In this document: piece after piece, positions 4,586 through 48,525 of the stretch
Position numbering within the stretch: position 1 is the stretch's first letter
How the letters are laid out: every line of letters begins with the position of its first letter
Source of the DNA: a virus
Length of the DNA stretch: 64,000 nt
Strand: one strand, 5' to 3'
Virus record (IMG/VR): IMGVR_UViG_3300037067_020797
Span: 1 to 64,000 of that record
Position numbers and translations under genes: made by a program
The notes under the pieces: generated by a model
Seen by the model: only the letters and a program-made list of their open reading frames with translations
What the model was told of the DNA's origin: nothing
The model's database searches: none

Positions 4586-5201
4586 ATGGTTTTTTAATTT
4601 ATTTAAAAAGAAGAAAGACGCTACTCTGCCTATTACAACATCAGAGATAGAAATAACAATGCCAAAAGAAGAAAAAAATTTAACAATTACAGATGTAAGT
4701 GATTCTCTTCCTTGGAATACCAATGGGCAAAGATGGAATAAAAGAAAAGAATCACAAATTAAAAGAATTGTTATACATCAAAGTTTAGGCACCAAAACTG
4801 TAAAAGATACTAATACTTATTGTATTAAGAATTCCCCTAATATGTCGTTAGGAAGAGGCATGCCAAAAATTCCATATCATTATTTTATAGAACCAAATGG
4901 TAAAATTTATAAATGTAATAAACATAGTGATCTAACTTCACATGTAAAAAACATGAATACAACATCACTTGCTATTTGTCTTGGAGGTTTTTATAATTAT
5001 ATAGAAAATGGTAAAATTATAAAAGGACGAGATGGGGATCCACCAGAAATACAGATTCAATCATTAGAATGGTTAACCAACTATTTAATAAAACTGTTAA
5101 AATTAACAACAAAAGATGTGTACACACACGACGAATTGCAGGGCAAGACTTGCTGTCCAGGTACAGCAGGTGCCATATTTGTAAAGAACCTTAAGGAATA
5201 A
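4578..5201 (+). CDS. N-acetylmuramoyl-L-alanine amidase, amidase_2/PGRP family (T7 lysozyme-like endolysin)
   Basis: RIVIHQS start motif. Conserved His/Cys zinc ligands. C-terminal ...HDELQGKTCCPG resembles the PGRP K-x-CPG signature. Confidence 0.55.
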   Translation: MFKWFFNLFKKKKDATLPITTSEIEITMPKEEKNLTITDVSDSLPWNTNGQRWNKRKESQIKRIVIHQSLGTKTVKDTNTYCIKNSPNMSLGRGMPKIPYHYFIEPNGKIYKCNKHSDLTSHVKNMNTTSLAICLGGFYNYIENGKIIKGRDGDPPEIQIQSLEWLTNYLIKLLKLTTKDVYTHDELQGKTCCPGTAGAIFVKNLKE

Positions 5202-36904: not shown

Positions 36905-36935
36905 ATAAAAAGGCGGTTTTTAAGCCGCCTTAAAA
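36905..36935 (-). terminator. intrinsic terminator after the Ro60 gene (AGGCGG-loop-CCGCCT, T-run on the minus strand)
   Basis: 6-bp GC stem. On the minus strand it is followed by TTTTTATTTTTT. Confidence 0.55.
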
Positions 36936-36936
36936 A

Positions 36937-38595
36937 TTAACCTCTTATGAAATCACTTATAATCTTTGGTGCAGAGGCATCAAAACCTGCAACATTCATC
37001 GTATATGGACTTTCTCCGGCAATAGATCCTTCAGTAGCAGATGTAGCTATGCTAATAAGTTTTGCTGGTATACCCATGCTACGCTGATAAGATTGTAATG
37101 CCTGTATAGGATGTGTTCTACCGGCCCATGTTTCATTATCAGTATAAACAAGAAATGCATCAACTGGTAATCTGTGCTGTTCTGCATAGATCATTGGAAG
37201 AGAACAATCGGTGCCACCATAATTCTGATTAGCAACACGTCGCATAACCTCACTAAGGCTTTGCTTTGCCGAGATTCCAAGGTCGATGAAATTAGTTGAG
37301 AACCCTTTTATAACCCAATCTTGTTCAGTACGCATAACTAACATTGACATGGCTGCAGTAACCTCACATGCTCTTAATTGTTCAGATCCAATAACACTAC
37401 ATGAACTCATGGATCCAGATATATCCAATCCAATTAAGATTCTTTTACCAGTGGGTTGTACAGTTCCAAATGATAAGTAAAATGCATCATCCAAAGCATC
37501 GACCAATTTTTGTATTGGTTGCCATGTAGAACTACCACGAAAACTATGACCTGATTTGTAGGTAGCATAGGCCAATAAAACTTGTATCGGATGTACTCGG
37601 CCTTTTTTAAGCAAATCCATATCATGTAACTTTTCAGCCACAAGTTTGGTATTTTCACTTCCGAGTTCGCCTAATACTCCAGCATTTGTTAATGTTGGTA
37701 ATTGACGAATAAGTGCAGTAATACCTAAATTCGGTATAATCGCGTCATAAAGATCTTTTGTTCGCTTTTCAGTCGGAACAAGTTCCATTGGTAAATTGTA
37801 TTTCTCTACCAAGCGAATAACTTCTTTTTGGTTATCCGTTGCCTTGATTTCCTCGTAGGCCCAGATTATGGGTAATTGTGCCTTGTAGGATTCGAGATCC
37901 TTTTGATATTGTTCAAGATTATAATTCTTGGAACCCTTATCTTTCTGTTGATGGAATTTTTCAACAGCCCATTTAAACGCTAATAACTGCGTATCGGTAT
38001 TTGGTGTTGGATGTGCCAATCGTAATATATCACGATGACTCCAACCATCACGAGATTGATACTTGGTTAATTGCAATGCTAACTGTTCGTCATTACGATC
38101 GATATACCATGCAGATATCGCATTACGTAACGATCTTGACCAACCACGCATCTTGTCAACATAATCAACAAAATGAAATAAATGAGTTCCGATTCGTGCA
38201 ACCTTTGCTAAGTTTTGTAGCGCGTATTTGCGTGTTTCAGCATTTTCAGCCGATGCGCACATAGCAAGTACAAATAAAGCTGGATCGTTCTTTGCAGCGC
38301 GACCAGCATCAGAAATTTCTATAACGATATCTACAACTCGTTTACCATCCGATTGTATGCACTTAGCAACATTCTTTGCATTATCGGCAGTCATTTGTTG
38401 TTTGCCAACATAATAGTTACCAGATTCTGATCCTAAGATCAAGAATCTTTCTAATCTTGCCCACTCATCAATCTCAAAAACATAACCACCTGCGGCATTC
38501 TTAATCATCTTTTTGCCGGGAATTGGTTGTGATTGTGGGGTAGGACCTTTTGGATTCATAGCTTGTGCAGCTTGAGATAATACTGTTTTCTTCAT
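36937..38595 (-). CDS. rsr: Ro60 (TROVE domain + vWA) orthologue, Rsr-like
   Basis: GGYVFEIDEWARLERFLILGSESGNYYVGKQQ aligns with Ro60 [31 protein letters not shown]. C-terminal vWA MIDAS ILIGLDISGSMS. Start placed at the ATG at 38595, preceded by AAGGAG. The track ORF extends to an upstream GTG at 38784 that lacks an RBS. Confidence 0.75.
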   Translation of the reverse strand: MKKTVLSQAAQAMNPKGPTPQSQPIPGKKMIKNAAGGYVFEIDEWARLERFLILGSESGNYYVGKQQMTADNAKNVAKCIQSDGKRVVDIVIEISDAGRAAKNDPALFVLAMCASAENAETRKYALQNLAKVARIGTHLFHFVDYVDKMRGWSRSLRNAISAWYIDRNDEQLALQLTKYQSRDGWSHRDILRLAHPTPNTDTQLLAFKWAVEKFHQQKDKGSKNYNLEQYQKDLESYKAQLPIIWAYEEIKATDNQKEVIRLVEKYNLPMELVPTEKRTKDLYDAIIPNLGITALIRQLPTLTNAGVLGELGSENTKLVAEKLHDMDLLKKGRVHPIQVLLAYATYKSGHSFRGSSTWQPIQKLVDALDDAFYLSFGTVQPTGKRILIGLDISGSMSSCSVIGSEQLRACEVTAAMSMLVMRTEQDWVIKGFSTNFIDLGISAKQSLSEVMRRVANQNYGGTDCSLPMIYAEQHRLPVDAFLVYTDNETWAGRTHPIQALQSYQRSMGIPAKLISIATSATEGSIAGESPYTMNVAGFDASAPKIISDFIRG

Positions 38596-38862
38596 TTCGA
38601 CTCCTTTTAGGATGTAAAAAATAAGATGAGCAATGTTTAAAAGTCGGATGCTTTTGACAAGCAGCGGATCTGGATTATAGCTCCAGCACCTTGGCATATT
38701 CTTTTTATCGCGCAAACAGCGGCATCCTGAACCCAGGTGCAGGTCGTTATTAATATGGGATTCATTCGGTTTCACAGAAACCACTCGACTTTATTAATTG
38801 TAGCCGAGCAGCTTCTCCGCCGAATGGAATATTAATAACTTATTCGATTGTATAATTGGTAA

Positions 38863-39226
38863 CCAACTTTAGTTCGGCTCATCACCATATGTAACAAGTG
38901 CCGTTTTATTTTTGGCGAAACGACTTACGCATACTACTGTAATTATTCCCAGTAGTTAAGAATGGGTGCTTTCGCACCTCCACCATGTGATCATGGATCA
39001 CAGTCTTCCTCGGTAAATGAATCTTCAGTTGTTCATCCGGTTAAGGGCCCCAACATGACGTTCTCATTTCACAACGAGGAATAATGACAATGGCAATCGA
39101 TTTTCGCCGGATGCAAGCATCCCGCTTAGCCATTGCATAAAACAAATTTCGGCAAAATATTGAGCTCGGAGACTGCCTTTTACATTTCCTAGGCTGGTTG
39201 TGGACTTTCACCACGTTTCTTTTTTA
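38863..39226 (+). ncRNA. candidate small RNA divergent from the Ro60 gene (Y-RNA-like partner hypothesis)
   Basis: Extended -10 element TGTATAAT at 38849-38856. No ORF follows. Hairpin-dense (ACTACTG/CAGTAGT, GGTGC-TTTC-GCACC, GTGATC-ATG-GATCAC, GGATGC/GCATCC). Ends with hairpin tgtggactttcaccacg plus TTTCTTTTTT at 39199-39226. Confidence 0.3.
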
Positions 39227-39271
39227 CGATTTATAGAATTGATAACCAAGCTACGTCCGGCCGAAAAACTT

Positions 39272-39463
39272 TTATTTCTCCTTTTTGGGAGGAGGCAGCA
39301 CAGTAAAATGTGTTTTTACTTCAATACCTGGTAACACTTCAGTAGTAAATACAGATGCATCCGTTAGAGGGTGCATTGTAACAAAATCTAAATTTTCTTC
39401 TGCACACTTAAGTGCTCGACTCTGTATTTGTTGAGTGTTAAGTATTTCATAATCTTTAGACAT
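39272..39463 (-). CDS. small hypothetical protein
   Basis: 63 aa ORF. Confidence 0.3.
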   Translation of the reverse strand: MSKDYEILNTQQIQSRALKCAEENLDFVTMHPLTDASVFTTEVLPGIEVKTHFTVLPPPKKEK

Positions 39464-39472
39464 GACGACTCC

Positions 39473-40117
39473 TTAAAATTCCGTTATAACCCCATTTACT
39501 CGTTGCCACTTTAATCTAAAGTAGCGCTTATCTTGTAATAGATTTGTCCATTGAATCGGTTGAAAAGTATCTGGATATTGATTACATATTTTAGTTCGTA
39601 TATCAACCCATTGTGTTGGATGTAATTCTGTATACTTATATATATGGTACCAACAATGTTCAGTACAAAAAGTGCCTTTTGTAAACCAATTATTTTCACT
39701 TAATACATCATGTTGAAGAAATTTTAAATGTAAGAATCTTCCGATTGGATTTAAAATTTTTATCCATAAGCCCGCCCAACCAAACCATAACCATGAAGCA
39801 TAACCATATACGTCACCGAGAAAAGTTCTTTCACCATAATCTAATGCGTGATAATTTTCTTCTTGTGTTCCGCCGATTATTTCATATACCCAGAAATTAT
39901 ATTTTGGATCTTTTATGAAATTATCCCATGTTTCGTGAACGACACCATTATATTCTGCTGAAAGTAATAAGGGTATATCTTGCTTTGATCCTGTGGGGTA
40001 AGTAACTACACAGCCATGTGTAGCGCCTTTACCATTTACCCAATGTTGTAAAGCGGCTGTAAACCCATGGCCATCCCCGACTATTAGATCTCCTGGTTTT
40101 AGATTTAAAGTGTTCAT
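39473..40117 (-). CDS. hypothetical protein with conserved Cys/His (possible papain-like hydrolase)
   Basis: 214 aa. HGCVV and CTEHCW motifs. Assignment is weak. Confidence 0.3.
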   Translation of the reverse strand: MNTLNLKPGDLIVGDGHGFTAALQHWVNGKGATHGCVVTYPTGSKQDIPLLLSAEYNGVVHETWDNFIKDPKYNFWVYEIIGGTQEENYHALDYGERTFLGDVYGYASWLWFGWAGLWIKILNPIGRFLHLKFLQHDVLSENNWFTKGTFCTEHCWYHIYKYTELHPTQWVDIRTKICNQYPDTFQPIQWTNLLQDKRYFRLKWQRVNGVITEF

Positions 40118-40315
40118 ATTGATGTTTTACTTTTTTACGGATCTTCCAACTGTAATGTTTTTTAAACTCGGTCCAATTTTCACCGGCATGATAGGAGCAA
40201 CAGGAACATTTACGAGTTTTCTTGCATATATACTGTTTATATGCTTTATTAAATACGGAGGAGTTAGTAGTGTGTTTTACTATTTCGTGATACATAAACT
40301 TTGTACTGCCCGACC

Positions 40316-40350
40316 GCAGTAAAAATAAAAGGGCAAATTATAGTCACCGA
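40316..40350 (-). promoter_or_regulatory. promoter-like repeat copy 1 (minus-strand TATAAT + conserved TTGCCCTTTTATTTTT leader)
   Basis: Minus-strand reading: cggtgacTATAATttgcccttttatttttactg. A second copy at 40676-40710 directly precedes the tRNA-Ala. Confidence 0.35.
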
Positions 40351-40512
40351 TATTTTTTCCAGTGATAACGATGACAGACGGCCCTAAAAATTAAAGCTGA
40401 ATAATAGTTTGAGACGGAGATTTGTCCGCCCACTGCTTACGCAGTGAGGTAGCCATCGGACGCTGCTACCTTTTCCATTGTGATAACCATCTCGATTCGA
40501 CTCAGCTTATAG

Positions 40513-40592
40513 TAGGGATTGATGGATTCGAACCACCGACTTCCTGTCCGTGAACAAGTCCTCTGGCCATTATTCTTCTGAGGTAAATCCCT
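40513..40592 (-). ncRNA. tRNA-like element (perfect acceptor-like stem and T-arm, oversized D- and anticodon-like loops)
   Basis: Minus strand: AGGGATT-TA-CCTC[16-nt loop]GAGG-ACTT[13-nt loop]AAGT-C-GGTGG-TTCGAAT-CCATC-AATCCCT-A. 7-bp acceptor-like stem and canonical TTCGAAT T-loop. The middle arms do not fit a canonical cloverleaf. Confidence 0.3.
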
Positions 40593-40599
40593 GTGTTAC

Positions 40600-40676
40600 T
40601 GGTGGACCCGAAGGGAGTCGAACCCTCCACAGATTGCTTGCAAGGCAGCCTCGCCCCCAACGGAACATGCGAGCCC
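40600..40676 (-). tRNA. tRNA-Ala (anticodon UGC), CCA encoded
   Basis: Minus strand: GGGCTCG...CTTGCAA anticodon loop (U33, TGC, A37)...GAGGG-TTCGACT-CCCTT-CGGGTCC-A-CCA. Acceptor stem with the G3:U70 wobble. T-arm canonical. D-arm irregular, with one C-A mismatch in the anticodon stem. Confidence 0.6.
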
Positions 40677-40710
40677 AAAAATAAAAAGGGCAAATAATTA
40701 TAGACCGCGT
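40676..40710 (-). promoter_or_regulatory. promoter-like repeat copy 2 directly upstream of tRNA-Ala
   Basis: Minus-strand reading: cgcggtcTATAATtatttgccctttttatttttg, followed by the tRNA 5' end. The TATAAT lies about 21 nt before the mature 5' end. Confidence 0.4.
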
Positions 40711-40912
40711 TTTTTTGTCTTTAAGTAAGATAAGATAACGATCTAAATCCGGCCCTACATTAATATATGATTTTTTTACTTTAAAGTCAAGTAAATTCTT
40801 GGCGCGTGTCCGGCAATCTTTACTTGTTAAGGGGATGTAAAGATGTTTGGAGGAGTCGGTCCTAGCCAATTCTGACACGCGTTAGTGCTGTAAACAGCAC
40901 ATAGTGAATATC

Positions 40913-41521
40913 TTATACCAGATTTTTTAGCACTATATCTGTAAATTCTTCCAGCCTCTTAACTCTGATAAGTCCATAATCCTCATCTTTTAAATTTCGA
41001 TTATATGGTCGATCCATTACAAATACCTTAGCATCAGAGTAAGTTGCAACTTCTGCACAGTTTTCTGGACGATCGTCTAAGAAGTATTTAAGATCCAACG
41101 CCTCAGCCAAGGGTGCCTTGTTAAACGATACTATAACCTGAGGACTGGTCCATCCTATCTTTTCCAGACTCTTGATAGTTTGTCTTATTAACGTATTTCC
41201 TTTAGTACTTACACGGGCAGTAATAAAGTATACAGCGATCTCAGGATTCTTATCAAAATGTTCACACATGTAATGTACTTGTCCTGGATTAAGTACCTCT
41301 ATTTCTTCCCAAAAATTATCTCGTTGAGTCATTACTTCCCATGCACGATCAAGCAATACCCTGTCTGCAGGATACCATTCTTCCCATCTCCAGGATTTAA
41401 ATCTGGGATCATCTTCATTTATAATAGGTAGATGATCACCGCCGAGCTCACGAATAATCTTAGAATATTCTTTAGCCCAATTAAATTGTACACCATCACA
41501 ATCTATTCCTACGTTTATCAT
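40913..41521 (-). CDS. HAD-superfamily 5'(3')-deoxyribonucleotidase-like protein (putative)
   Basis: N-terminal IDCDGV resembles HAD motif I (DxDx[TV]) of NT5C-type nucleotidases. Confidence 0.4.
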   Translation of the reverse strand: MINVGIDCDGVQFNWAKEYSKIIRELGGDHLPIINEDDPRFKSWRWEEWYPADRVLLDRAWEVMTQRDNFWEEIEVLNPGQVHYMCEHFDKNPEIAVYFITARVSTKGNTLIRQTIKSLEKIGWTSPQVIVSFNKAPLAEALDLKYFLDDRPENCAEVATYSDAKVFVMDRPYNRNLKDEDYGLIRVKRLEEFTDIVLKNLV

Positions 41522-43159: not shown

Positions 43160-44035
43160 TTAAAAGTTGCCGTCGGCTACCTGAAAAACAACGATATTAA
43201 GATCATTCCTATACATTCGTATCATCTGATCTCTATCATCCAAAGCAAATAAAACCGAAAATTTTCCAGCTATATTGGCATCATATAACTCACGTTTCAC
43301 TATACAATCCTTTCGAAAATCCTTAGTCGTACGCATATATAATGCATCGTAAGTTATGTTATATTTCTTAAGCCAACGTTCAGTATGAGGTCTAAATTGT
43401 TCTTCTCTTCCTGACATTAGTATTATACGAAGATCTTTGCCATTTTTCAAGTACATTGATTTCATAGCTTCTAATGTTTGAGCTACCGGAATAGATACTG
43501 CATCATCCTCACATTTAACCGTTTCAAATGGGCCTCGATTTGTAAATAATGCCAGTGTACCATCAAGATCACAAATAATGGCGAAAGGCAGAGTGGAATC
43601 TGTAGCTATTATAGGCTGTCGCTTTACACCTGGAAGAAATCTCACAAAGCTCCGAACAACCTTTTCACCAACGTGCCCTTCGCCAACTTTACGCTGTGAA
43701 TCCCGATATACACATTCCTCTACTGAGACATCTGTGAAATCTTGAACTATGTATTCAGCATCACAATCTTTCGCAAATTGAACTAAAGCATCAAATGTCT
43801 TTGGAATGAGATTAGTATCATCACTAATTACATCTATTCCGGACTGTAATAAACTTGTGATATTCTCATCCCTTAATTTACGTATAAAGTCTTCGCTTTT
43901 CCCTGGATAAGTTTTCCGTAAAGCATCACGATTTACAATACATGTACCAGGATGACTTGTAACATATTCTTTTGCCCACGTGGATTTACCTGAACCAGGT
44001 AATCCACGACAAATAATAAATTTAGATTTCGCCAT
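43160..44035 (-). CDS. pnk: polynucleotide 5'-kinase / 3'-phosphatase (T4 Pnkp-like)
   Basis: N-terminal P-loop kinase IICRGLPGSGKSTWAKEY. C-terminal HAD phosphatase motif ICDLDGTLALF (DxDGT). About 291 aa, like T4 Pnkp. Confidence 0.7.
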   Translation of the reverse strand: MAKSKFIICRGLPGSGKSTWAKEYVTSHPGTCIVNRDALRKTYPGKSEDFIRKLRDENITSLLQSGIDVISDDTNLIPKTFDALVQFAKDCDAEYIVQDFTDVSVEECVYRDSQRKVGEGHVGEKVVRSFVRFLPGVKRQPIIATDSTLPFAIICDLDGTLALFTNRGPFETVKCEDDAVSIPVAQTLEAMKSMYLKNGKDLRIILMSGREEQFRPHTERWLKKYNITYDALYMRTTKDFRKDCIVKRELYDANIAGKFSVLFALDDRDQMIRMYRNDLNIVVFQVADGNF

Positions 44036-44285
44036 ATTTTTTATCCTTATTTATTTTATAATACCATAAATATGCCCCGCTTAATGCTCCAGCTAAAATA
44101 GTTAACACAATTATAACCCAATTATATATTCCTGCAACCTTTAAAATAGCATTTAAAGTTGCCCATGGTAATGCGCCTAACATAATTGTGATATAAAACA
44201 AAAAAGTATTTTTTAGTTTTTGCCAAAACATACTATCATCTATATAATATATCTGACACGTATTTGACCTCTTCATCCCACGCAC
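44022..44285 (-). CDS. small membrane protein
   Basis: Two hydrophobic helices. Confidence 0.3.
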   Translation of the reverse strand: MRGMKRSNTCQIYYIDDSMFWQKLKNTFLFYITIMLGALPWATLNAILKVAGIYNWVIIVLTILAGALSGAYLWYYKINKDKKYGEI

Positions 44286-44922
44286 CGATTAAGTGCCACC
44301 AATTGCCTACAGGTGATTTTCCAAGAACGATTGGATCCTTCTTTCTTTCGACTTCTCTTGCTACGCTTTCTTTTACGATTAATATAATTTCAGCTTCATC
44401 AGAGTCAACCCATAACTTACCCCAGGCAGTCCTAAACTTACTTATTTCTTCAAGACCTTCGGTTGGTATTGTTGAAATGTAACTATTTATCGGAACTCGA
44501 CAAAGTTTATATTTAGCCAAAAGATCATTAATGGCAGCTTCTGTTACGACAGGCCAGGGAGAAAGAATTTCTGGACATTTGCGAAATCTTTTTCTTGCTT
44601 TAAGATAAAGTAGTGCTAATTTTTCCTCGTCAAAATCTAATTTATTCTTCTTTATTATCTTTATTCTGGCATTTACTACACTGATAGCTTTATCCAAATT
44701 TTCCAAATATAATAAAGGAATATTTGGCTGTATTAATTGTTTTACAACATCTACAGGGTTACTATCAATACGTTTATCCATTTGATCCTCGAATGCGGGG
44801 TTAACAGCAAAGGTAGAGCCAAAAGTACCCCATCTTGATCCCATAATAAAAGAATTCCTTCGCCTGGATAATTTTTTAATACCAGTAATAAATTTTTTAG
44901 TAAATCTGACTAAATTATTCAT
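44236..44922 (-). CDS. hypothetical protein
   Basis: 228 aa. Confidence 0.35.
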   Translation of the reverse strand: MNNLVRFTKKFITGIKKLSRRRNSFIMGSRWGTFGSTFAVNPAFEDQMDKRIDSNPVDVVKQLIQPNIPLLYLENLDKAISVVNARIKIIKKNKLDFDEEKLALLYLKARKRFRKCPEILSPWPVVTEAAINDLLAKYKLCRVPINSYISTIPTEGLEEISKFRTAWGKLWVDSDEAEIILIVKESVAREVERKKDPIVLGKSPVGNWWHLIGAWDEEVKYVSDILYR

Positions 44923-44931
44923 AGATTTCTC

Positions 44932-45171
44932 CTAACTTGTTTTAGATTTTCCTTTATTTACTATTGTTCCTAAGGGAAAAGGTTGCGTGTATTCTATAAA
45001 TTTATAACAATCGGGGCATATGCCTACAGAATAAGTTTCACCGCCGACGGTGATCATAATATCTTTGTCATGGGGGCATAATAATTGAGCTAACCAGTTA
45101 GGCCAGAAATTTATTAATATCCCATGTGATCGTCTCCACCAGTGAGTAGGACGAATATAAGTTTCAAACAT
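44932..45171 (-). CDS. small Cys-containing protein
   Basis: 79 aa. C..HD...CPDC pattern. Confidence 0.3.
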   Translation of the reverse strand: MFETYIRPTHWWRRSHGILINFWPNWLAQLLCPHDKDIMITVGGETYSVGICPDCYKFIEYTQPFPLGTIVNKGKSKTS

Positions 45172-45305
45172 TTTATCCTTTCAAATAATTGAGGGGTCTT
45201 GCGACCCCCCGATAGTATAATATTACACGTCATGTTACCAGCGTGCCGGCCTACAGTACAATCGAGAAAACAGCCGGTCGTGAAAGGATGTTTAGTTCGA
45301 TTGTT

Positions 45306-46091
45306 TCACAGTAAGTTATTTTTATGTAATATTTGTTTTTGAATTTGTACTAACTGATTATCCAGCCAGTCATAATCAAACTTTTCCGGCAATATGCTAT
45401 CTCTGTTAGCTTCATCCAGATCTTGTTCATAGCATTTAAATAGGTACTGAAATTCCTCTAAGGTTATTTGTCCTAATTTTACTTCCATACATATTTTTTG
45501 TTGTACTTCTGGAAGTCTTACAGGAAAATATCCTTCGAGCAATGCTTCTTTACCGGCATACATTAAACGTATACAATGTGATGCATTGCGAGGAGAGTAA
45601 TTTAAACGTTCGAGCTCTTCCTTTCGTCGGGCTCCTAAATCACGAGAAGATTCACCAAGTGCTTTGCGATATTCTGCGTAAGAGTACCCATGTATAACGT
45701 TATATATCTGTTTGGTAATAAAGGCTTCTTTATGTAAAAGAATATAATACTTAAATTGTTCGTTGCCGTCAAATAAGACGCAGTCTTCTGGGCTGAACAA
45801 CATTTCTAACATCTGTGTATTACCAGCTGCAGCTAAATGACAAAATTTACGAACATGCCAATAAACTTTATCTTCTGGTTCTGGAAATACTTTTTGTTCA
45901 AAGATTTTCATACCAAAATAATACCTTAAATCATCTGGCATCACTACACCACGTATGTCAAGATCCGATTCGGGGGTAGCTAATCCATAGGCATGAGAGC
46001 CAATTTTGCATTCATATAATTTAATTAAATTCATATTAATAAAACCACGTATGTGTCCATTGACCAATAATCTTAATATGTGATAATACAA
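45306..46091 (-). CDS. minimal nucleotidyltransferase (Pol-beta superfamily)
   Basis: GSHAYGLATPESDLDIRGV fits the GS-x9-DxD nucleotidyltransferase signature. Sits in the RNA-repair neighbourhood. Confidence 0.5.
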   Translation of the reverse strand: MYYHILRLLVNGHIRGFINMNLIKLYECKIGSHAYGLATPESDLDIRGVVMPDDLRYYFGMKIFEQKVFPEPEDKVYWHVRKFCHLAAAGNTQMLEMLFSPEDCVLFDGNEQFKYYILLHKEAFITKQIYNVIHGYSYAEYRKALGESSRDLGARRKEELERLNYSPRNASHCIRLMYAGKEALLEGYFPVRLPEVQQKICMEVKLGQITLEEFQYLFKCYEQDLDEANRDSILPEKFDYDWLDNQLVQIQKQILHKNNLL

Positions 46092-46195
46092 TTAATATAA
46101 AAACATACCAAGATACTACTTCAGTAATACACATTATAAGTCCAACTACGATAAAAATAATTGAAAACAAATTTATTTCGGTTATTCTCCAACAT

Positions 46196-46624
46196 TTATT
46201 CATCTAATACTCCTGCCTGAATTAGTGTCCTTCTAAGATTAGTAGAGACATATTCATGTGCATTTTCTTTAGTTACATATTTGAAAGCATCTGCTTCTGG
46301 AAATGGTTTTCGATTAGGAAGCTTTACCATTTCCGTGCATTTAAGTGTATCGATATTTGGAAGTTTATCTAACGTAATTTTAAAGAGATAGAGATCCTTT
46401 GCAGGTAGATACGTAAACTGCCCAAGATCTTGAATTACAGCTATATCTGTAGGTATAGTAAAACCAGTTTCCTCTTTAACCTCGCGAAGGCATGCATCTA
46501 AAAAATCTTCCGCTACTTCAACTCCACCTTTGGGTATATCCCAAATCTTTTGTCCTGTCGCATGACAGACTAAAAAACTGGTGCCATCTGTTAAAATGGC
46601 ACCCGCTGATATCTTACGAGGCAT
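46196..46624 (-). CDS. Nudix hydrolase
   Basis: Nudix box GGVEVAEDFLDACLREVKEETGF. Confidence 0.65.
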   Translation of the reverse strand: MPRKISAGAILTDGTSFLVCHATGQKIWDIPKGGVEVAEDFLDACLREVKEETGFTIPTDIAVIQDLGQFTYLPAKDLYLFKITLDKLPNIDTLKCTEMVKLPNRKPFPEADAFKYVTKENAHEYVSTNLRRTLIQAGVLDE

Positions 46625-46696
46625 TTAGTTTTCCTTTCTCTGCTAAACGCCGTAATCGTCTTTTTTGTTTCCTTAATTTGCGAGCCTGAATAGCAC

Positions 46697-47449
46697 GTGT
46701 ATGTATTTTATTTGCCTCAGCTCTTAGAATTTGACCTTTTAAGAAGTTCATGGATTCATGTCCTTATGCATTTAGGTGTTTTTATGATTTGCATTTTTGC
46801 AGATATTTTTGTATATTATAAAATGACTAAAATAATAGAACATAAAATTAAAGAAGCTTATAATAACGGACATTCCTATAAAAGCATAATGCATGAGTTT
46901 AACGTTAGTTATGGCACGATTTGTGGTATTATTGGAAAATTTAAACTTGCCGGTCGAAAACTTAAAATAAAACTAATAGGAAAAAATAAAGCAAAATGTA
47001 GCAGATGTCATAAAATTCGACCATTAAGTAGATTTAGTGTAGGGCATTCTACTAAAAAGTATTATTATAGCTTTTGTAATACCTGCCATCAGGGGAAAAG
47101 AACAATTTATTATAATACTAATATAGAAAGTCGTTTAAAATTAATATATACTCACCTTAAGAGCAAAGCTAAAAAACTAAATCTTAAATTCTTTATTTCA
47201 TTTGAGGAATTTAAAAATATTTATAATAAACAAAATAATAAATGTTATTATACTGGATTTACAATGACAACGAAATTAGGAAATGGAGCTTCAAAATTTG
47301 CAATTTCAGTTGATCAAATTATACCCGGCAAAGGTTATACAAAAGATAATATTGTATTTTGTACGCGTTTTGCAAATTCCATAAAAAGTAATTTATCCAA
47401 ACAAGAATTAAGGAAATGGATAAAAGCTATTTATCAACATATTAATTAA
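46697..47449 (+). CDS. zinc-finger / HNH-like endonuclease domain protein (possible homing endonuclease)
   Basis: Two CxxC/CxxH pairs (CSRCHK, CNTCHQ). C-terminal VDQIIPGKGYTKDNIVFCTRFANSIKS resembles a degenerate HNH core. Confidence 0.35.
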   Translation: MYVFYLPQLLEFDLLRSSWIHVLMHLGVFMICIFADIFVYYKMTKIIEHKIKEAYNNGHSYKSIMHEFNVSYGTICGIIGKFKLAGRKLKIKLIGKNKAKCSRCHKIRPLSRFSVGHSTKKYYYSFCNTCHQGKRTIYYNTNIESRLKLIYTHLKSKAKKLNLKFFISFEEFKNIYNKQNNKCYYTGFTMTTKLGNGASKFAISVDQIIPGKGYTKDNIVFCTRFANSIKSNLSKQELRKWIKAIYQHIN

Positions 47450-48525
47450 GCAGGAAGAACCTGGTGCAGTAGTTTTTTATAAGCATCGTTATCTAATTCT
47501 CGATTATCGAGCATCGTAAATACAAATCCCGATCGACTCGTTTTACCGTAAGCAGATATGATCTTAGCTGCTGCTTCCTTTCTTGGAAGTGTTCGCACTT
47601 CGTCAGCAAAAAATTTCATATGGTCAAGGATCTTATTAACTTCTTTATTCGCATCGGCTAATTTACTTATATCTCCACGTGCAATAACTGCACATTCGTA
47701 ATCGTAGGTATTGGCTACATAATCGTAAAATTCTTGATAAGACGGCCGACCACATAACACGTACGCTTCAAGTAAATTATTGATACTTAAGTCACTTTTG
47801 AATGCATGTATCGCCAGATATTTTTGGCCTTTAACTTTTTTGATGTGTTGATCTTTATCATAGTATAAACAAACGCCCTCCTTACCATCAAATGCTCTAA
47901 CTTGGGATAATAAATCTTCAACGTCCTCAAACCTAAGCGTCGGTGGGCGCGGAATGCCCAGGTTATCTGCCATGACATCAAGTGTATTTTGAGAGAGCAG
48001 ACTATAATCATCATGAACAATGGCACCGACAAGGAAAAGTTCCGGATCCGGTCCCAGGTCGAGAACGATTCGATTTTTGGGGCTGTACCATTCGAAGATT
48101 CTTGTGAAGTTGTCATTAGGTATTTCGAAAGCTCTCCGATATTTCTTTTTAAGCAGTTCAATCTCGTCTGCATTATCAAATATACTAACATCAAATGTAC
48201 CTCGGGTACGTATGATTAATTTATCCTTAAATGGTGAAACTATAAGAGTACTTCCATCTATTTTTTCAACTGCCGTTGTTCCTATTAAACTATCAGGAGC
48301 CGGTATAATATTATCCTTTTCATCCCAGTTAAAAAACTTAGGAAAACTTGGGCTTACAAGATAACCATCTTCAGTCCATATTGATGATCTGAAGATTAAA
48401 TTTTCTTTAGTCCAAGTGCATCCCATGTGCTGCGGATGCACAAGAACTAAAGGTTCTCCATACTGGGTAGAGGTCTTCCGCAAGAACTCTTCAGAAAGCG
48501 ATTCTAATGGGTAAGATAGTTTCAT
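47446..48525 (-). CDS. ATP-dependent RNA ligase, T4 Rnl1-like (putative)
   Basis: Nucleotidyltransferase motif I VEKIDGSTLIV (KxDG). Size 359 aa. Same region as Pnkp. Confidence 0.5.
   Translation of the reverse strand: MKLSYPLESLSEEFLRKTSTQYGEPLVLVHPQHMGCTWTKENLIFRSSIWTEDGYLVSPSFPKFFNWDEKDNIIPAPDSLIGTTAVEKIDGSTLIVSPFKDKLIIRTRGTFDVSIFDNADEIELLKKKYRRAFEIPNDNFTRIFEWYSPKNRIVLDLGPDPELFLVGAIVHDDYSLLSQNTLDVMADNLGIPRPPTLRFEDVEDLLSQVRAFDGKEGVCLYYDKDQHIKKVKGQKYLAIHAFKSDLSINNLLEAYVLCGRPSYQEFYDYVANTYDYECAVIARGDISKLADANKEVNKILDHMKFFADEVRTLPRKEAAAKIISAYGKTSRSGFVFTMLDNRELDNDAYKKLLHQVLPA

What the first reader, a model, noticed from the sequence alone, without database searches (positions are those of the whole stretch)
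36937..39271. Ro60/Rsr orthologue next to a 676-bp hairpin-dense non-coding region: candidate Y-RNA-like partner
The TROVE region GGYVFEIDEWARLERFLILGSESGNYYVGKQQ is very close to Ro60, and a vWA domain with an intact MIDAS follows. Ro60 proteins work with small Y RNAs that are usually encoded adjacent to them. The gene is flanked by 38596-39271, which is ORF-free and relatively GC-rich. It holds an extended -10 element (TGTATAAT at 38849) on the opposite strand. Many perfect short hairpins follow, including the overlapping alternatives CCATG-TGAT-CATGG and GTGATC-ATG-GATCAC. A hairpin plus T-run lies near 39199-39226. A TATAAT plus SD-containing leader for the Ro60 gene lies on the minus strand at 38596-38680.
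Basis: partly seen in the sequence, partly recalled or inferred. Interest (0 to 1): 0.75.

Follow-up and report, generated by a model that had tools for sequence, protein, structure and literature searches.

The report
Phage Ro60 gene with Y-RNA array
An uncultivated ~215-kb phage carries a Ro60 RNA-binding protein gene preceded, on the same strand, by five small structured RNAs of the Y-RNA type (Ro60's usual partners), two of them in the flagged 676-bp gap; this extends a known pairing and is not a new kind of system.

Summary
The Ro60 gene is real: minus strand 38595-36937, 552 aa, TROVE + Ro60-vWA domains, E=4e-114 to solved Ro60 structures. Two modules lie there on the Ro60 strand: X (39266-39147) and Z (38883-38625, ending 30 nt before the Ro60 start codon). 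Three more (a, d, e) lie at 40758-40328, interleaved with an atypical tRNA-Ala and a tRNA-like element. All five share one architecture: terminal stem P1, 5' CG(A), second stem P2, UUAYC, variable core, 3' loop ending in AUU/UUU, U-tail. Known actinophage Y RNAs flanking Ro60, including YrlA, have the same architecture. Stems covary in relatives (Z: 13 of 24 pairs compensatory, 0/500 shuffles). A covariance model trained only on relatives ranks the five modules as the window's top five hits and ranks known actinophage Y RNAs top in their own loci. No module is a canonical YrlA: Rfam gives no hit and none has a tRNA-like T/AS/D domain. Verdict: a new variant of a known kind; Ro60 binding is inferred, not shown.

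The parts
36937..38595 (-). Ro60/Rsr orthologue, 552 aa (TROVE ring + vWA with MIDAS-type residues)
   Evidence: Pfam TROVE 2.8e-41 and vWA_Ro60 6.4e-54. PDB 2NVO at 4e-114 and 1YVP at 9e-109. Identical 552-aa protein P0001.
36910..36931 (-). Intrinsic-terminator-like hairpin plus U-run directly after the Ro60 stop; probable end of the transcription unit
   Evidence: AAGGCGG-CTTAAAAA-CCGCCTT followed by TTTATTTTTT.
38596..38624 (-). U-rich tail of module Z (UUAUUUUUU) followed by the Ro60 ribosome-binding site (AAGGAG 38606-38601)
   Evidence: Sequence read directly. The 30-36 nt spacing between Z and the start codon recurs in L002, L006 and L014.
38625..38883 (-). Y-RNA-type module Z (~260 nt). 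P1 GAUGAGC/GCUCAUC; 5' loop CGAACU.; P2 AAGUUGG/CCGACUU; UUACC; large structured core; 3' loop UUUAAACAUU.
   Evidence: MFE -84.8 kcal/mol, z=-4.85, 0/200 shuffles as good, and P1/P2 appear in the MFE fold. Orthologues in 6 relatives: 87% of cells paired, 13/24 pairs with compensatory change, 0/500 shuffles on all five measures. Descriptor hit. CM R2 17.2 bits, E=0.14, ranked 5th in the window.
38900..38985 (-). Element W: conserved hairpins of unknown role between X and Z (GGUGC-GAAA-GCACC; CUACUG/CAGUAG; GUCGUUU-CGCCAAAAAUA-AAACGGC)
   Evidence: In alignment A4 with L002, L005 and L006 the stems covary (CUACUG/CAGUAG vs CCUCAG/CUGAGG vs CCUCUG/CAGAGG) and the 11-nt loop is conserved. No Rfam hit.
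38986..39146 (-). No homologue was found.
   Evidence: MFE of 38886-39136 has z=-2.34. No BLAST match in relatives. No Y-type descriptor hit even with relaxed rules.
39147..39266 (-). Y-RNA-type module X (120 nt). P1 UUUCGGC/GCCGAAA; 5' loop CGGACGU; P2 AGCUUGG/CCGAGCU; UUAUC; A-rich linker; hairpin GUGG-UGAAAGU-CCAC in the T-arm position; hairpin GCCU..AGGC; 3' loop CAAUAUUUU.
   Evidence: Orthologues in L002, L005 and L006 at 72-83% identity. 92% of cells paired, 7 pairs with compensatory change, 0/500 shuffles reach the covariation score, slid controls at 28-51% paired. CM R2 35.8 bits, E=8e-6. The single-sequence MFE is not exceptional (z=-0.37).
39272..39463 (-). 63-aa ORF between the two RNA regions; conserved small protein
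   Evidence: 38% identical to the 61-aa gene L005:4567-4752. 71% DNA identity to L004:4620-4799. No Pfam family.
39473..40117 (-). 214-aa ORF of unknown function; shared only with L004, so probably an insertion into the RNA array
   Evidence: No Pfam family. BLASTN match to L004:3693-4474 only.
40328..40387 (-). Y-RNA-type module e (short, ~60 nt)
   Evidence: CM R2 44.9 bits, E=7e-8. In the orthologue L005:3774-3834, P1 covaries (AGGGC/GCCCU vs ACGGGU/AUCCGU).
40396..40506 (-). Y-RNA-type module d (111 nt). P1 GCUGAGU/AUUCAGC; GUCGAAUCG motif; P2 AGAUGG/CCGUCU; core of three hairpins.
   Evidence: CM R2 37.7 bits, E=3e-6. Descriptor 7/7 + 6/6. In the orthologues in L006 and L007, P1 is ACCGAGU/AUUCGGU, with two compensatory changes.
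40513..40592 (-). tRNA-like element 2: 7-bp acceptor stem, U8A9, 4-bp D stem with a 16-nt loop, 5-bp stem with a 6-nt loop, T arm GGUGG-UUCGAAU-CCAUC, no CCA
   Evidence: Sequence read directly. Rfam tRNA model only 14.8 bits. ARAGORN calls nothing. Conserved in L004.
40600..40676 (-). Atypical tRNA-Ala(UGC) gene: G3:U70, anticodon loop CUUGCAA, encoded CCA, aberrant D arm, C-A mismatch in the anticodon stem
   Evidence: Positional homologue of the tRNA-Ala(UGC) found in every relative. Matches the tmRNA tRNA-like-domain model at E=2e-6. 87% identical to LR756511.1. Not called by ARAGORN or Rfam in the window.
40685..40758 (-). Y-RNA-type module a (74 nt), the first RNA of the array
   Evidence: CM R2 56.7 bits, E=1.4e-10. 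Descriptor hit.
40762..40790 (-). Sigma-70-type promoter-like site TTGACT-17-TATATT. It would place the transcription start at the first G of module a.
   Evidence: 10/12 match. The same TTGACA-17-TATATT arrangement precedes a module in L005, L006 and L007 (sequences).
43160..48525 (-). Upstream RNA-repair gene cluster on the same strand: PNKP 43160-44035, RlaP 45306-46091, NUDIX 46196-46624, Rnl1-type RNA ligase 47446-48525
   Evidence: Pfam HAD_PNKP 1.4e-40 with AAA_33; RlaP 4.9e-16; NUDIX 7e-13; RNA_lig_T4_1 3.6e-8. Same neighbourhood in L005, L006, L007 and L012.

Best explanation
The window comes from an uncultivated phage of about 215 kb. It carries a minus-strand operon running from the promoter-like site at 40790 to the terminator-like site at 36910. 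The operon ends with a Ro60 gene and begins with an array of five Y-RNA-type non-coding RNAs. Two of them (X at 39266-39147 and Z at 38883-38625) fill much of the flagged 676-bp gap. Three more (a, d, e) sit at 40758-40328, alternating with an atypical tRNA-Ala and a tRNA-like element.

Each module closes its 5' and 3' ends into a stem (P1). This is followed by an internal loop that starts with CG(A) on the 5' strand, a second stem (P2), the motif UUAYC, a variable core, and a U-rich tail. This is the stem-bulge-stem platform that Ro60 recognises in characterised Y RNAs.

Inferred mechanism, by analogy with Deinococcus, Salmonella, Mycobacterium and Thermus phage phiLo: the array is transcribed as one precursor and cut into individual RNAs, probably with help from tRNA-processing enzymes at the interleaved tRNA-like genes. 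The phage Ro60 then binds the P1/loop/P2 platform of each RNA. The different cores would tether or gate Ro60 towards different partners, such as a host exoribonuclease like PNPase or the phage's own Pnkp/Rnl1/RlaP repair enzymes, for RNA quality control or repair during infection.

Shown here: gene identity, RNA architecture, strand, conservation, covariation and family resemblance. Inferred: transcription, processing, Ro60 binding and function.
For: Ro60 identity.

A recurring module lies on the Ro60 strand only. A 5' motif regex gives 6 hits in the window against 0.51 expected, and 5 of them fall within the 2.2 kb upstream of Ro60. A structural descriptor gives 6 hits against 0.81 expected. 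Across relatives, 30 of 31 descriptor hits are on the Ro60 strand.

Covariation: module Z has 13/24 pairs with compensatory change and 0/500 shuffles reaching any measure, with a single-sequence z-score of -4.85. Module X has 7 compensatory pairs, and 0/500 shuffles reach its covariation score. G-U pairs in P1 and P2 fit only the minus strand.

Same architecture in known phage Y RNAs next to Ro60: mycobacteriophage Catera (three RNAs, one of them YrlA by Rfam at E=3e-6), FuzzBuster, BearBQ and Forza.

Cross-recognition: CM R2, trained on 11 modules from relatives and none from the window, ranks a, e, d, X and Z as the window's top 5 hits (E from 1e-10 to 0.14; the next hit is at E=2.1). The same model ranks known actinophage Y RNAs as its top 9 hits in 60.8 kb of their loci, all on the Ro60 strand.

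Literature: Y RNAs lie within 4 kb of Ro60 on the same strand and carry GNCGAA and YUAY motifs (PMC4201824). Phage phiLo Ro60 binds two upstream Y-like RNAs found through a CGAA motif in a stem-bulge-stem (PMC12135203). TROVE proteins occur in a subset of jumbo phages with RNA-repair genes (PMC7824862).
Against: There are no expression or binding data, so Ro60 binding is an inference from resemblance.

Rfam YrlA and Y_RNA give no hit, even at E<=10.

A CM built from four known actinophage short Y RNAs (R1) found none of the window modules at E<=10. A 26-nt sequence profile of known 5' halves was not significant either (Z E=3.6, X E=16).

R2's hits on known Y RNAs are individually modest (E 0.004-0.3). 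Z itself scores only E=0.14.

I tuned the descriptor after seeing both sets, so it is not fully independent.

X rests on only 4 sequences, and its MFE is unremarkable (z=-0.37).

X's 5' motif is GCCGGA, one mismatch from GNCGAA. A more distant relative, L003, has CCCAG in place of CGA, so that motif is not universal.
Confidence: 0.8

Rival explanations
1. Module Z is mainly a cis-acting 5' leader or attenuator of the Ro60 mRNA rather than a free-standing Y RNA. Its closing stem plus U-run, 30 nt before the start codon, would terminate or permit read-through. Ro60 binding to the Y-type platform could autoregulate its own synthesis. This can coexist with the main explanation.
For: Z ends with P1' GCUCAUC followed by UUAUUUUUU. 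The SD begins about 19 nt downstream of P1' and the AUG follows at 30 nt. The 30-36 nt spacing recurs in L002, L006 and L014. Z is the one module found directly before Ro60 in all 8 related loci. No promoter-like site is called between Z and the Ro60 start.
Against: All other modules also end in a U-rich tail without a downstream gene, so the tail is a family trait. In L004 and L012 the gap between Z and the start codon is 69-121 nt. A long-range stem closing a 260-nt RNA is not a typical intrinsic terminator. Nothing here tests regulation.
Confidence: 0.3
2. The modules are RNA-processing or termination punctuation of a phage tRNA operon (leader, trailer and spacer elements cut by RNase P, Z or E). 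They have no specific relation to Ro60.
For: Modules abut tRNA or tRNA-like genes with 3-10 nt spacers in the window and in relatives. In L013 some lie inside tRNA arrays 6 kb from Ro60. In relatives one module type is the 5' leader of tRNA-Ala.
Against: The same platform flanks the YrlA tRNA-like domain and its short neighbours beside Ro60 in actinophages, whose Ro60 is about 40% identical and whose genomes are much more GC-rich. The tRNA array of the 595-kb phage (L001), with no Ro60 in the fetched stretch, gives no regex match and only one weak stray descriptor hit (6/7 P1, overlapping a tRNA-Val gene). X and Z are not next to any tRNA in the window.
Confidence: 0.08
3. One reading: a plus-strand small RNA starts at the extended -10 TGTATAAT (38849) and ends at the hairpin plus T-run at 39199-39226.
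For: Both strings exist. The + strand hairpin with T-run is picked up by the terminator scan.
Against: No -35/-10 pair is called on the + strand there. Both strings fall inside minus-strand RNAs whose stems contain G-U pairs, which would be A-C mismatches on the + strand. All related modules in all loci are on the Ro60 strand. The intervening palindromic hairpins are not conserved.
Confidence: 0.03
4. The region is decayed remnants of tRNA genes and repeats with no function of its own.
For: The window's tRNA-Ala and tRNA-like element are non-canonical. X carries a hairpin in the T-arm position that lacks the T-loop sequence.
Against: Compensatory changes preserve the stems of X, Z, W, d and e across loci whose Ro60 proteins are only 56-79% identical. 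The atypical tRNA-Ala keeps G3:U70 and is 87% identical to a copy in an unrelated 595-kb phage.
Confidence: 0.04

Closest known systems
Actinobacteriophage and mycobacterial Y RNAs next to Ro60: YrlA plus short YrlB-like RNAs (Chen et al. 2014, PMC4201824)
   Same: They lie upstream of Ro60 on the same strand, several per locus. The platform is the same: P1 ending in GG(C/U), then CG(A), 17-19 nt to (G)GUUAYC, P2, a 3' loop ending in ACAU/CCAC (AUU or UUU in the window modules), and P1'. They are cross-recognised by CM R2. In M. smegmatis, YrlA and YrlB are cut from one precursor upstream of rsr.
   Different: No window module has the YrlA tRNA-like domain (T arm, closed acceptor-like stem, UA, D arm), and Rfam RF02553 gives nothing. 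There are five modules rather than two or three. The cores are new: a 260-nt Z, a three-hairpin d, and X with a 7-nt UGAAAGU loop. The sequences are AU-rich with U-tails. The modules are interleaved with tRNA-like genes and two protein genes.
Thermus phage phiLo Ro60 with Yrl1/Yrl2 (PMC12135203)
   Same: A phage-encoded Ro60 with Y-like RNAs in the upstream non-coding region, recognised by a CGAA motif inside a stem-bulge-stem. For phiLo, binding and a cryo-EM complex were shown experimentally.
   Different: phiLo has two RNAs rather than five. I did not fetch the phiLo sequences, so any sequence relationship is untested. phiLo is not a jumbo phage carrying a Pnkp/Rnl1 cluster.
Salmonella rsr-yrlBA-rtcBA RNA-repair operon (PMC7790460)
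   Same: Ro60 and Y RNAs are encoded together with RNA-repair enzymes in one gene neighbourhood.
   Different: The repair chemistry here is T4-type (Pnkp + Rnl1 + RlaP + NUDIX), not RtcB/RtcA. The Y RNAs precede Ro60 rather than follow it. No RtcR-type regulator was seen. The promoter-like site is sigma-70-type rather than sigma-54.
Deinococcus radiodurans Yrn1 / metazoan Y RNAs
   Same: A terminal stem carries the Ro60 site on the 5' strand (GGUCCGA in vertebrates, against GG(U/C)CGA here), joined to a variable effector module. In D. radiodurans, Yrn1 tethers Rsr to PNPase.
   Different: There is no Rfam Y_RNA hit and no exact bulged-C helix. The 3' strand is not conserved in sequence. Transcription would be bacterial-type.

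Membership tests
Ro60 / TROVE protein | TROVE HEAT-repeat ring followed by a Ro60-type vWA domain | tested here: met
   Pfam TROVE 2.8e-41 (residues 32-343) and vWA_Ro60 6.4e-54 (385-550, profile 1-165/165). PDB 2NVO 4e-114, 9NEN 4e-114, 1YVP 9e-109.
Ro60 / TROVE protein | MIDAS residues in the vWA domain (DxSxS ... T ... D) | tested here: met
   Read from the translation: LDISGSM, GGTDCS, YTDNETW. This is a motif reading against general knowledge of vWA MIDAS, with no structural check.
Bacterial/phage Y RNA (Ro60-binding stem module) | Encoded within ~4 kb of Ro60 on the same strand (Chen 2014) | tested here: met
   Z ends 30 nt before the Ro60 AUG and X ends 552 nt before it; a, d and e lie 1.7-2.2 kb upstream. 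All are on the minus strand.
Bacterial/phage Y RNA (Ro60-binding stem module) | Long stem formed by pairing of the 5' and 3' ends, interrupted by an internal loop (stem-bulge-stem) | tested here: met
   P1 and P2 are supported by compensatory changes. Z: helix 1 has 6/7 pairs changed on both sides and helix 2 is 93% paired. X: helix 1 has 5/8 pairs changed on both sides and helix 2 is 96% paired.
Bacterial/phage Y RNA (Ro60-binding stem module) | 5'-strand motif GNCGAA(N0-1)G, or CGAA in the bulge | tested here: inconclusive
   Z has GCCGAAC and d has GUCGAAUCG; both contain GNCGAA but lack the trailing G at the stated spacing. X has GCCGGAC (one mismatch). Modules a and e have GCCGGA and GCCGUC. 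Relatives include exact matches (L013 GUCGAAUG, L007 GUCGAAGG).
Bacterial/phage Y RNA (Ro60-binding stem module) | Conserved YUAY at the top of the stem | tested here: met
   UUAUC in a, d, e and X; UUACC in Z. It lies at the same 17-19 nt distance from the CG as in the Catera, FuzzBuster, BearBQ and Forza Y RNAs.
Bacterial/phage Y RNA (Ro60-binding stem module) | Recognised by one statistical model together with accepted Y RNAs | tested here: met
   CM R2 (relatives only) gives the window's top 5 hits as a, e, d, X and Z. Its top 9 hits in actinophage Ro60 loci are the Y RNAs there, three YrlA among them (E 0.004-0.3). The reverse test failed: CM R1, built from 4 known RNAs, found no window module, and a 5' sequence profile was not significant.
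Bacterial/phage Y RNA (Ro60-binding stem module) | Physically bound by Ro60 in vivo or in vitro | not testable with these tools
   Needs RIP, EMSA or structure determination.
YrlA (Rfam RF02553) | Match to the Rfam covariance model | tested here: not met
   No hit at gathering score in the window, and none at E<=10 in 38400-39500 or 40050-41000. Control: Catera YrlA scores 36 bits, E=3e-6, below the gathering score of 69. The relative L005 also gives no hit.
YrlA (Rfam RF02553) | tRNA-like domain in the order T arm (UUCRANY loop), closed acceptor-like hairpin, UA, D arm | tested here: not met
   X has a 4-bp stem with loop UGAAAGU and then a single hairpin. Z, a, d and e have no T or D arm.
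Metazoan Y RNA (Rfam RF00019) | Rfam model match; GGUCCGA helix with a bulged C | tested here: not met
   No Rfam hit. The 5' strand reads GG(C/U)CG(A/G), one C shorter.
Canonical tRNA (for the two tRNA-like elements in the array) | Cloverleaf accepted by ARAGORN or Rfam tRNA | tested here: not met
   ARAGORN finds 0 genes in the window. Rfam tRNA scores 14.8 bits for 40513-40563, and the tmRNA tRNA-like-domain model gives E=2e-6 for 40600-40676. The latter keeps G3:U70, the UGC anticodon and CCA, and has canonical homologues in relatives.

The most novel reading that the evidence does not exclude
The locus is a tRNA-punctuated multi-Y-RNA operon in which a phage Ro60 is loaded onto five different Y RNAs. 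Their distinct cores would direct it to different partners, including the phage's own Pnkp/Rnl1/RlaP tRNA-repair enzymes. The result would be a modular RNP platform that counters host tRNA- or rRNA-cleaving defences. The last and largest Y RNA (Z) would double as an autoregulatory leader through which Ro60 controls its own translation or read-through.
Probability: 0.15. Interest if true: 0.7.

Novelty: new variant of a known kind. Interest (0 to 1): 0.45.

Why it matters
Y RNAs are Ro60's defining partners, but outside a few bacteria and actinophages they are hard to find because only the short Ro60-binding platform is conserved.

This locus shows that a whole clade of uncultivated ~215-kb phages carries 5-8 Y-type RNAs per genome. 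Rfam misses them, and gene callers partly swallow them: the JGI call for this Ro60 is 615 aa and runs across Z.

The work here yields a simple platform descriptor and a covariance model that also recover known actinophage Y RNAs, so they could be used to annotate more of them.

The alternation with tRNA-like genes and the link to T4-type RNA-repair genes parallel the Salmonella rsr-yrl-rtcBA operon, although the repair enzymes differ. That strengthens the idea that Ro60-Y RNPs belong to RNA-damage responses, and it gives a testable phage model for what the variable Y-RNA cores do.

Tried and rejected
1. Rfam at gathering score over the whole window, and at E<=10 over both non-coding regions. 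Only chance-level hits appeared (a Cobalamin 14-bit hit over X, snoRNAs and similar), with no YrlA or Y_RNA. The weak Cobalamin hit recurs on the X orthologue in L005. I regard it as a reflection of the GGUGAAAGUCC-like string, not a riboswitch.

2. ARAGORN on the window found 0 tRNAs.

3. BLASTN against GenBank phages matched only the 76-nt tRNA-Ala-like element.

4. Pattern scan of viral contigs for module X, and Ro60-based locus searches in viral and metagenome collections, returned only the same few relatives. One protein (P0012) had no DNA on file.

5. An nhmmer profile of X finds only its orthologues, plus weak full-length similarity to the T-arm-bearing 'type 3' modules of L004 and L005 (E 0.03-0.09). 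That type is absent from the window.

6. A 26-nt profile of the 5' halves of known Y RNAs was not significant.

7. CM R1, built from four known actinophage short Y RNAs, gave no window module at E<=10. It is underpowered and tuned to high GC. MAFFT also misaligned a fifth sequence.

8. A relaxed descriptor scan of 38560-40950 for further modules in the 39146-38886 gap found none.

9. Stray motif hits are judged to be chance. The one at 59446 is a hairpin just after the stop of a 395-aa ORF. Those at 6332-6201 and 30300 lie outside the Ro60-upstream array; 6332-6201 falls inside a 390-aa ORF.

10. The supplementary alignments of Chen 2014 and the Sim 2020 review are not held.

11. My first idea was that the two tRNA-like elements were the T and D parts of a YrlA. 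I rejected it: they are separate cloverleaf-like units, the dimeric-tRNA false positive that Chen 2014 warn about.

Full report
**1. The observation**

The minus-strand ORF ending at 36937 encodes a genuine Ro60.
- The quoted TROVE peptide is present.
- Pfam gives TROVE (2.8e-41) and the Ro60-specific vWA domain (6.4e-54, full profile length).
- The protein matches solved Ro60/Rsr structures at E about 1e-109 to 1e-114.
- DxSxS...T...D MIDAS-type residues can be read in the sequence.

The mechanical ORF starts at a GTG (38784, 615 aa). The true start is ATG 38595, preceded by AAGGAG. An identical 552-aa protein is on record, from a 215-kb contig. The 615-aa form is a JGI gene call that runs across RNA Z.

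The stretch 38596-39271 holds only mechanical 40-57-aa ORFs. Its GC is 0.40-0.44, against 0.25-0.34 in the flanking small genes.

**2. Context**

Relatives of this Ro60 were fetched: L002, L004-L007, L009, L012 and L014 at 56-79% identity, and more distantly L013 and L003. They come from viral or metagenomic contigs of up to 215 kb and share synteny.
- Upstream on the same strand lie an Rnl1-type RNA ligase, NUDIX, RlaP and PNKP. Then come 1.5-3 kb of mostly non-coding DNA, then Ro60.
- Downstream lie a DUF5906 primase-helicase and a ClpB-like ATPase.
- The window has the same repair genes at 43160-48525.

Ro60 is common in cultured phages: 360 GenBank records, mostly actinophages. None is more than 42% identical to this one.

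**3. What the non-coding DNA contains**

Comparing the upstream regions revealed one recurring module, always on the Ro60 strand. From 5' to 3' it reads:
- P1 5' strand, ending G-R-G-Y
- CG(A) plus a few bases
- P2 5' strand, ending in G
- UUAYC
- a variable core
- P2 3' strand
- a loop, often (C)AAACAUU in relatives; in the window it ends AUU or UUU
- P1 3' strand
- a U-rich tail

The window has five copies.
- **a**, 40758-40685. It starts at the predicted +1 of a TTGACT-17-TATATT promoter-like site. The same arrangement is conserved in L005, L006 and L007.
- **d**, 40506-40396.
- **e**, 40387-40328.
- **X**, 39266-39147.
- **Z**, 38883-38625.

Between a and d sit two tRNA-like genes.
- An atypical tRNA-Ala(UGC) at 40676-40600. 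It has G3:U70, an encoded CCA and an odd D arm. It is canonical in the relatives.
- A tRNA-like element at 40592-40513, with a 6-nt 'anticodon' loop.

Between e and X lie a small Cys-rich ORF, a 214-aa ORF shared only with L004, and a conserved 63-aa ORF.

Between X and Z lie a hairpin cluster specific to this window and a conserved element W.

A terminator-like hairpin follows the Ro60 stop. The whole stretch 40790-36910 therefore reads as one transcription unit. This is an inference.

**4. Is it more than chance?**

- The 5' motif regex occurs 6 times in the window against 0.51 +/- 0.69 in Markov shuffles. Five hits fall in the 2.2 kb upstream of Ro60 on its strand.
- A full structural descriptor (P1 at least 6/7, P2 6/6, fixed spacings) gives 6 hits against 0.81 expected, with the same five clustered. 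Across relatives, 30 of 31 descriptor hits are on the Ro60 strand.
- Module Z folds to -84.8 kcal/mol, z=-4.85, with P1 and P2 in the MFE fold.
- Across seven loci, Z's consensus structure is 87% paired and 13 of 24 pairs carry compensatory changes. No shuffle out of 500 reaches any of the five measures. Slid controls drop to 26-53% paired.
- Module X has only four sequences. It is 92% paired with 7 compensatory pairs, including GUGG/CCAC versus GCGG/CCGC in the hairpin at the T-arm position. 0/500 shuffles reach the paired fraction or the covariation score, and 28/500 reach the pair count. Its single-sequence energy is unremarkable (z=-0.37).
- G-U pairs in the conserved stems are compatible only with the minus strand.

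**5. What it is**

The intergenic DNA upstream of Ro60 in mycobacteriophage Catera holds three RNAs with exactly this platform. The middle one is YrlA, whose tRNA-like domain matches Rfam RF02553 at E=3e-6. FuzzBuster, BearBQ and Forza show the same arrangement: one YrlA plus one or two short RNAs.

In both groups the distance from the CG to the end of GUUAYC is 17-19 nt. The motifs correspond to the GNCGAA and YUAY elements that Chen et al. 2014 describe for bacterial Y RNAs, and to the 'CGAA in a stem-bulge-stem' criterion used to find the experimentally bound Yrl1/Yrl2 of Thermus phage phiLo (PMC4201824, PMC12135203).

A covariance model trained on 11 short modules from relatives, none from the window (R2), was searched without filters.
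- In the window its top five hits are a, e, d, X and Z: 56.7, 44.9, 37.7, 35.8 and 17.2 bits, with E from 1e-10 to 0.14. The next hit is 12.1 bits, E=2.1.
- In 60.8 kb of actinophage Ro60 loci its top nine hits are all on the Ro60 strand at Y-RNA positions. They include three YrlA and the short Y RNAs, at E 0.004-0.3.

The reverse tests were negative. A model built from four known short Y RNAs found no window module, and a 26-nt sequence profile was not significant. Both are small and tuned to high GC.

I conclude that the modules are Y-RNA-type Ro60 ligands, with confidence about 0.8. Binding itself is untested.

**6. What it is not**

None of the window modules is a YrlA. Rfam gives no hit even at E<=10, and there is no T arm / closed acceptor stem / UA / D arm series.
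- X carries a 4-bp hairpin with a 7-nt loop UGAAAGU where its T-arm-bearing paralogues in L004, L005 and L007 have a true UUCRAUN T arm. That 'type 3' paralogue is missing from the window.
- The palindromic hairpins are not conserved.

**7. How it most likely works**

All of this is inferred, by analogy with M. smegmatis (YrlA and YrlB cut from one precursor), D. radiodurans (Y RNA tethers Rsr to PNPase and gates the Ro60 cavity), Salmonella (rsr-yrlBA-rtcBA) and phage phiLo.

The array is transcribed from the sigma-70-type promoter. It is cut into individual RNAs, with the interleaved tRNA-like genes providing RNase P and 3'-processing sites. Each RNA is then bound by the phage Ro60 through the P1/loop/P2 platform. 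The different cores would recruit different partners.

The neighbourhood with Pnkp, Rnl1, RlaP and NUDIX suggests a role in RNA damage control during infection.

Z ends 30 nt before the Ro60 start codon, which raises the separate possibility of autoregulation.

**8. Novelty**

Y RNAs next to phage Ro60 genes have been known since 2014, and binding was shown for one phage in 2025. TROVE proteins in jumbo phages with RNA-repair genes have also been noted (PMC7824862). I did not find the following described in the papers searched here:
- the size of the array (five modules here, up to eight in relatives);
- the new cores (Z, d, X);
- the absence of a YrlA-type tRNA mimic;
- the regular alternation with tRNA(-like) genes;
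- the pairing with T4-type repair enzymes rather than RtcB-type.

I rate it a new variant of a known kind, of moderate interest.

Noticed in passing
window 40600-40676 (-): Atypical tRNA-Ala(UGC) that ARAGORN and Rfam tRNA both miss. It keeps G3:U70, the anticodon loop CUUGCAA and an encoded CCA, but has an aberrant D arm and a C-A mismatch in the anticodon stem. It is 87% identical to an uncalled element inside the tRNA array of the 595-kb phage LR756511.1, and it resembles a tRNA-Ala that ARAGORN does call in L012.
   Followed up: partly
window 40513-40592 (-): tRNA-like element with acceptor stem, U8A9, D stem with a 16-nt loop, a 5-bp stem with a 6-nt loop, and a perfect T arm, but no CCA. 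It is conserved in L004 (3453-3530) and sits 6 nt before Y module d.
   Followed up: partly
window 38900-38985 (-): Element W: three hairpins with covarying stems and a conserved 11-nt loop CGCCAAAAAUA, shared with L002, L005 and L006. No Rfam match; role unknown.
   Followed up: partly
window 38986-39146 (-): Hairpin cluster with no homologue in any fetched locus. The fold z-score for 38886-39136 is -2.3.
   Followed up: partly
window 40029-40295 (-): Small Cys-rich ORF (..CSCCSYHAGEN..SWKIRKKVKHQYE..) homologous to 62-64-aa genes in L007 (4002-4190) and L012 (3795-3989). In the window it runs on and overlaps the start of the 214-aa ORF. So 40118-40295 is probably coding, not part of the RNA array.
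   Followed up: partly
window 43160-48525 (-): T4-type RNA-repair gene set (PNKP, RlaP, NUDIX, Rnl1-type ligase) on the Ro60 strand, conserved in the relatives.
   Followed up: partly
window 38596-38784 (-): Gene callers over-extend Ro60. The 615-aa JGI product (P0121) starts at the GTG at 38784 and reads through RNA Z. The 596-aa product for the L002-type contig (P0004) looks like the same artefact.
   Followed up: partly
L013 4585-4675, 5662-5752, 12161-12224, 13354-13590: In a more distant relative (Ro60 51% identical, 30 tRNA genes in 13.7 kb), Y-type modules sit inside the tRNA arrays, 2-4 nt from neighbouring tRNAs. Some lie about 4.5-6 kb downstream of the Ro60 gene.
   Followed up: no
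L002 4466, L004 3219, L005 3882, L006 4542, L007 3181: In relatives, a short Y-type module (GGGUCGCUGAUACAGGGUUAUCC...) forms the 5' leader immediately before tRNA-Ala. The window has module a in that position instead.
   Followed up: partly
L003 5583-6000: A 43%-identical Ro60 preceded by 27 tRNA genes has a canonical-looking YrlA (T arm, closed stem, UA, D arm) and a short Y RNA. Their 5' loop reads CCCAG instead of CGA, so that motif is not universal.
   Followed up: no
L019 (Gordonia phage Forza) 4980-5047: An annotated 68-nt 'tRNA-Gln' overlaps a Y-type module (4983-5107 by my scan). It may be a mis-annotated Y RNA.
   Followed up: no
window 59415-59447 (-): A stray match to the 5' motif (AGCCGGGCGUGGUGACAUUUGUUACCACGC) forms a hairpin just after the stop of a 395-aa ORF. 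It is probably a terminator, not a Y module.
   Followed up: partly
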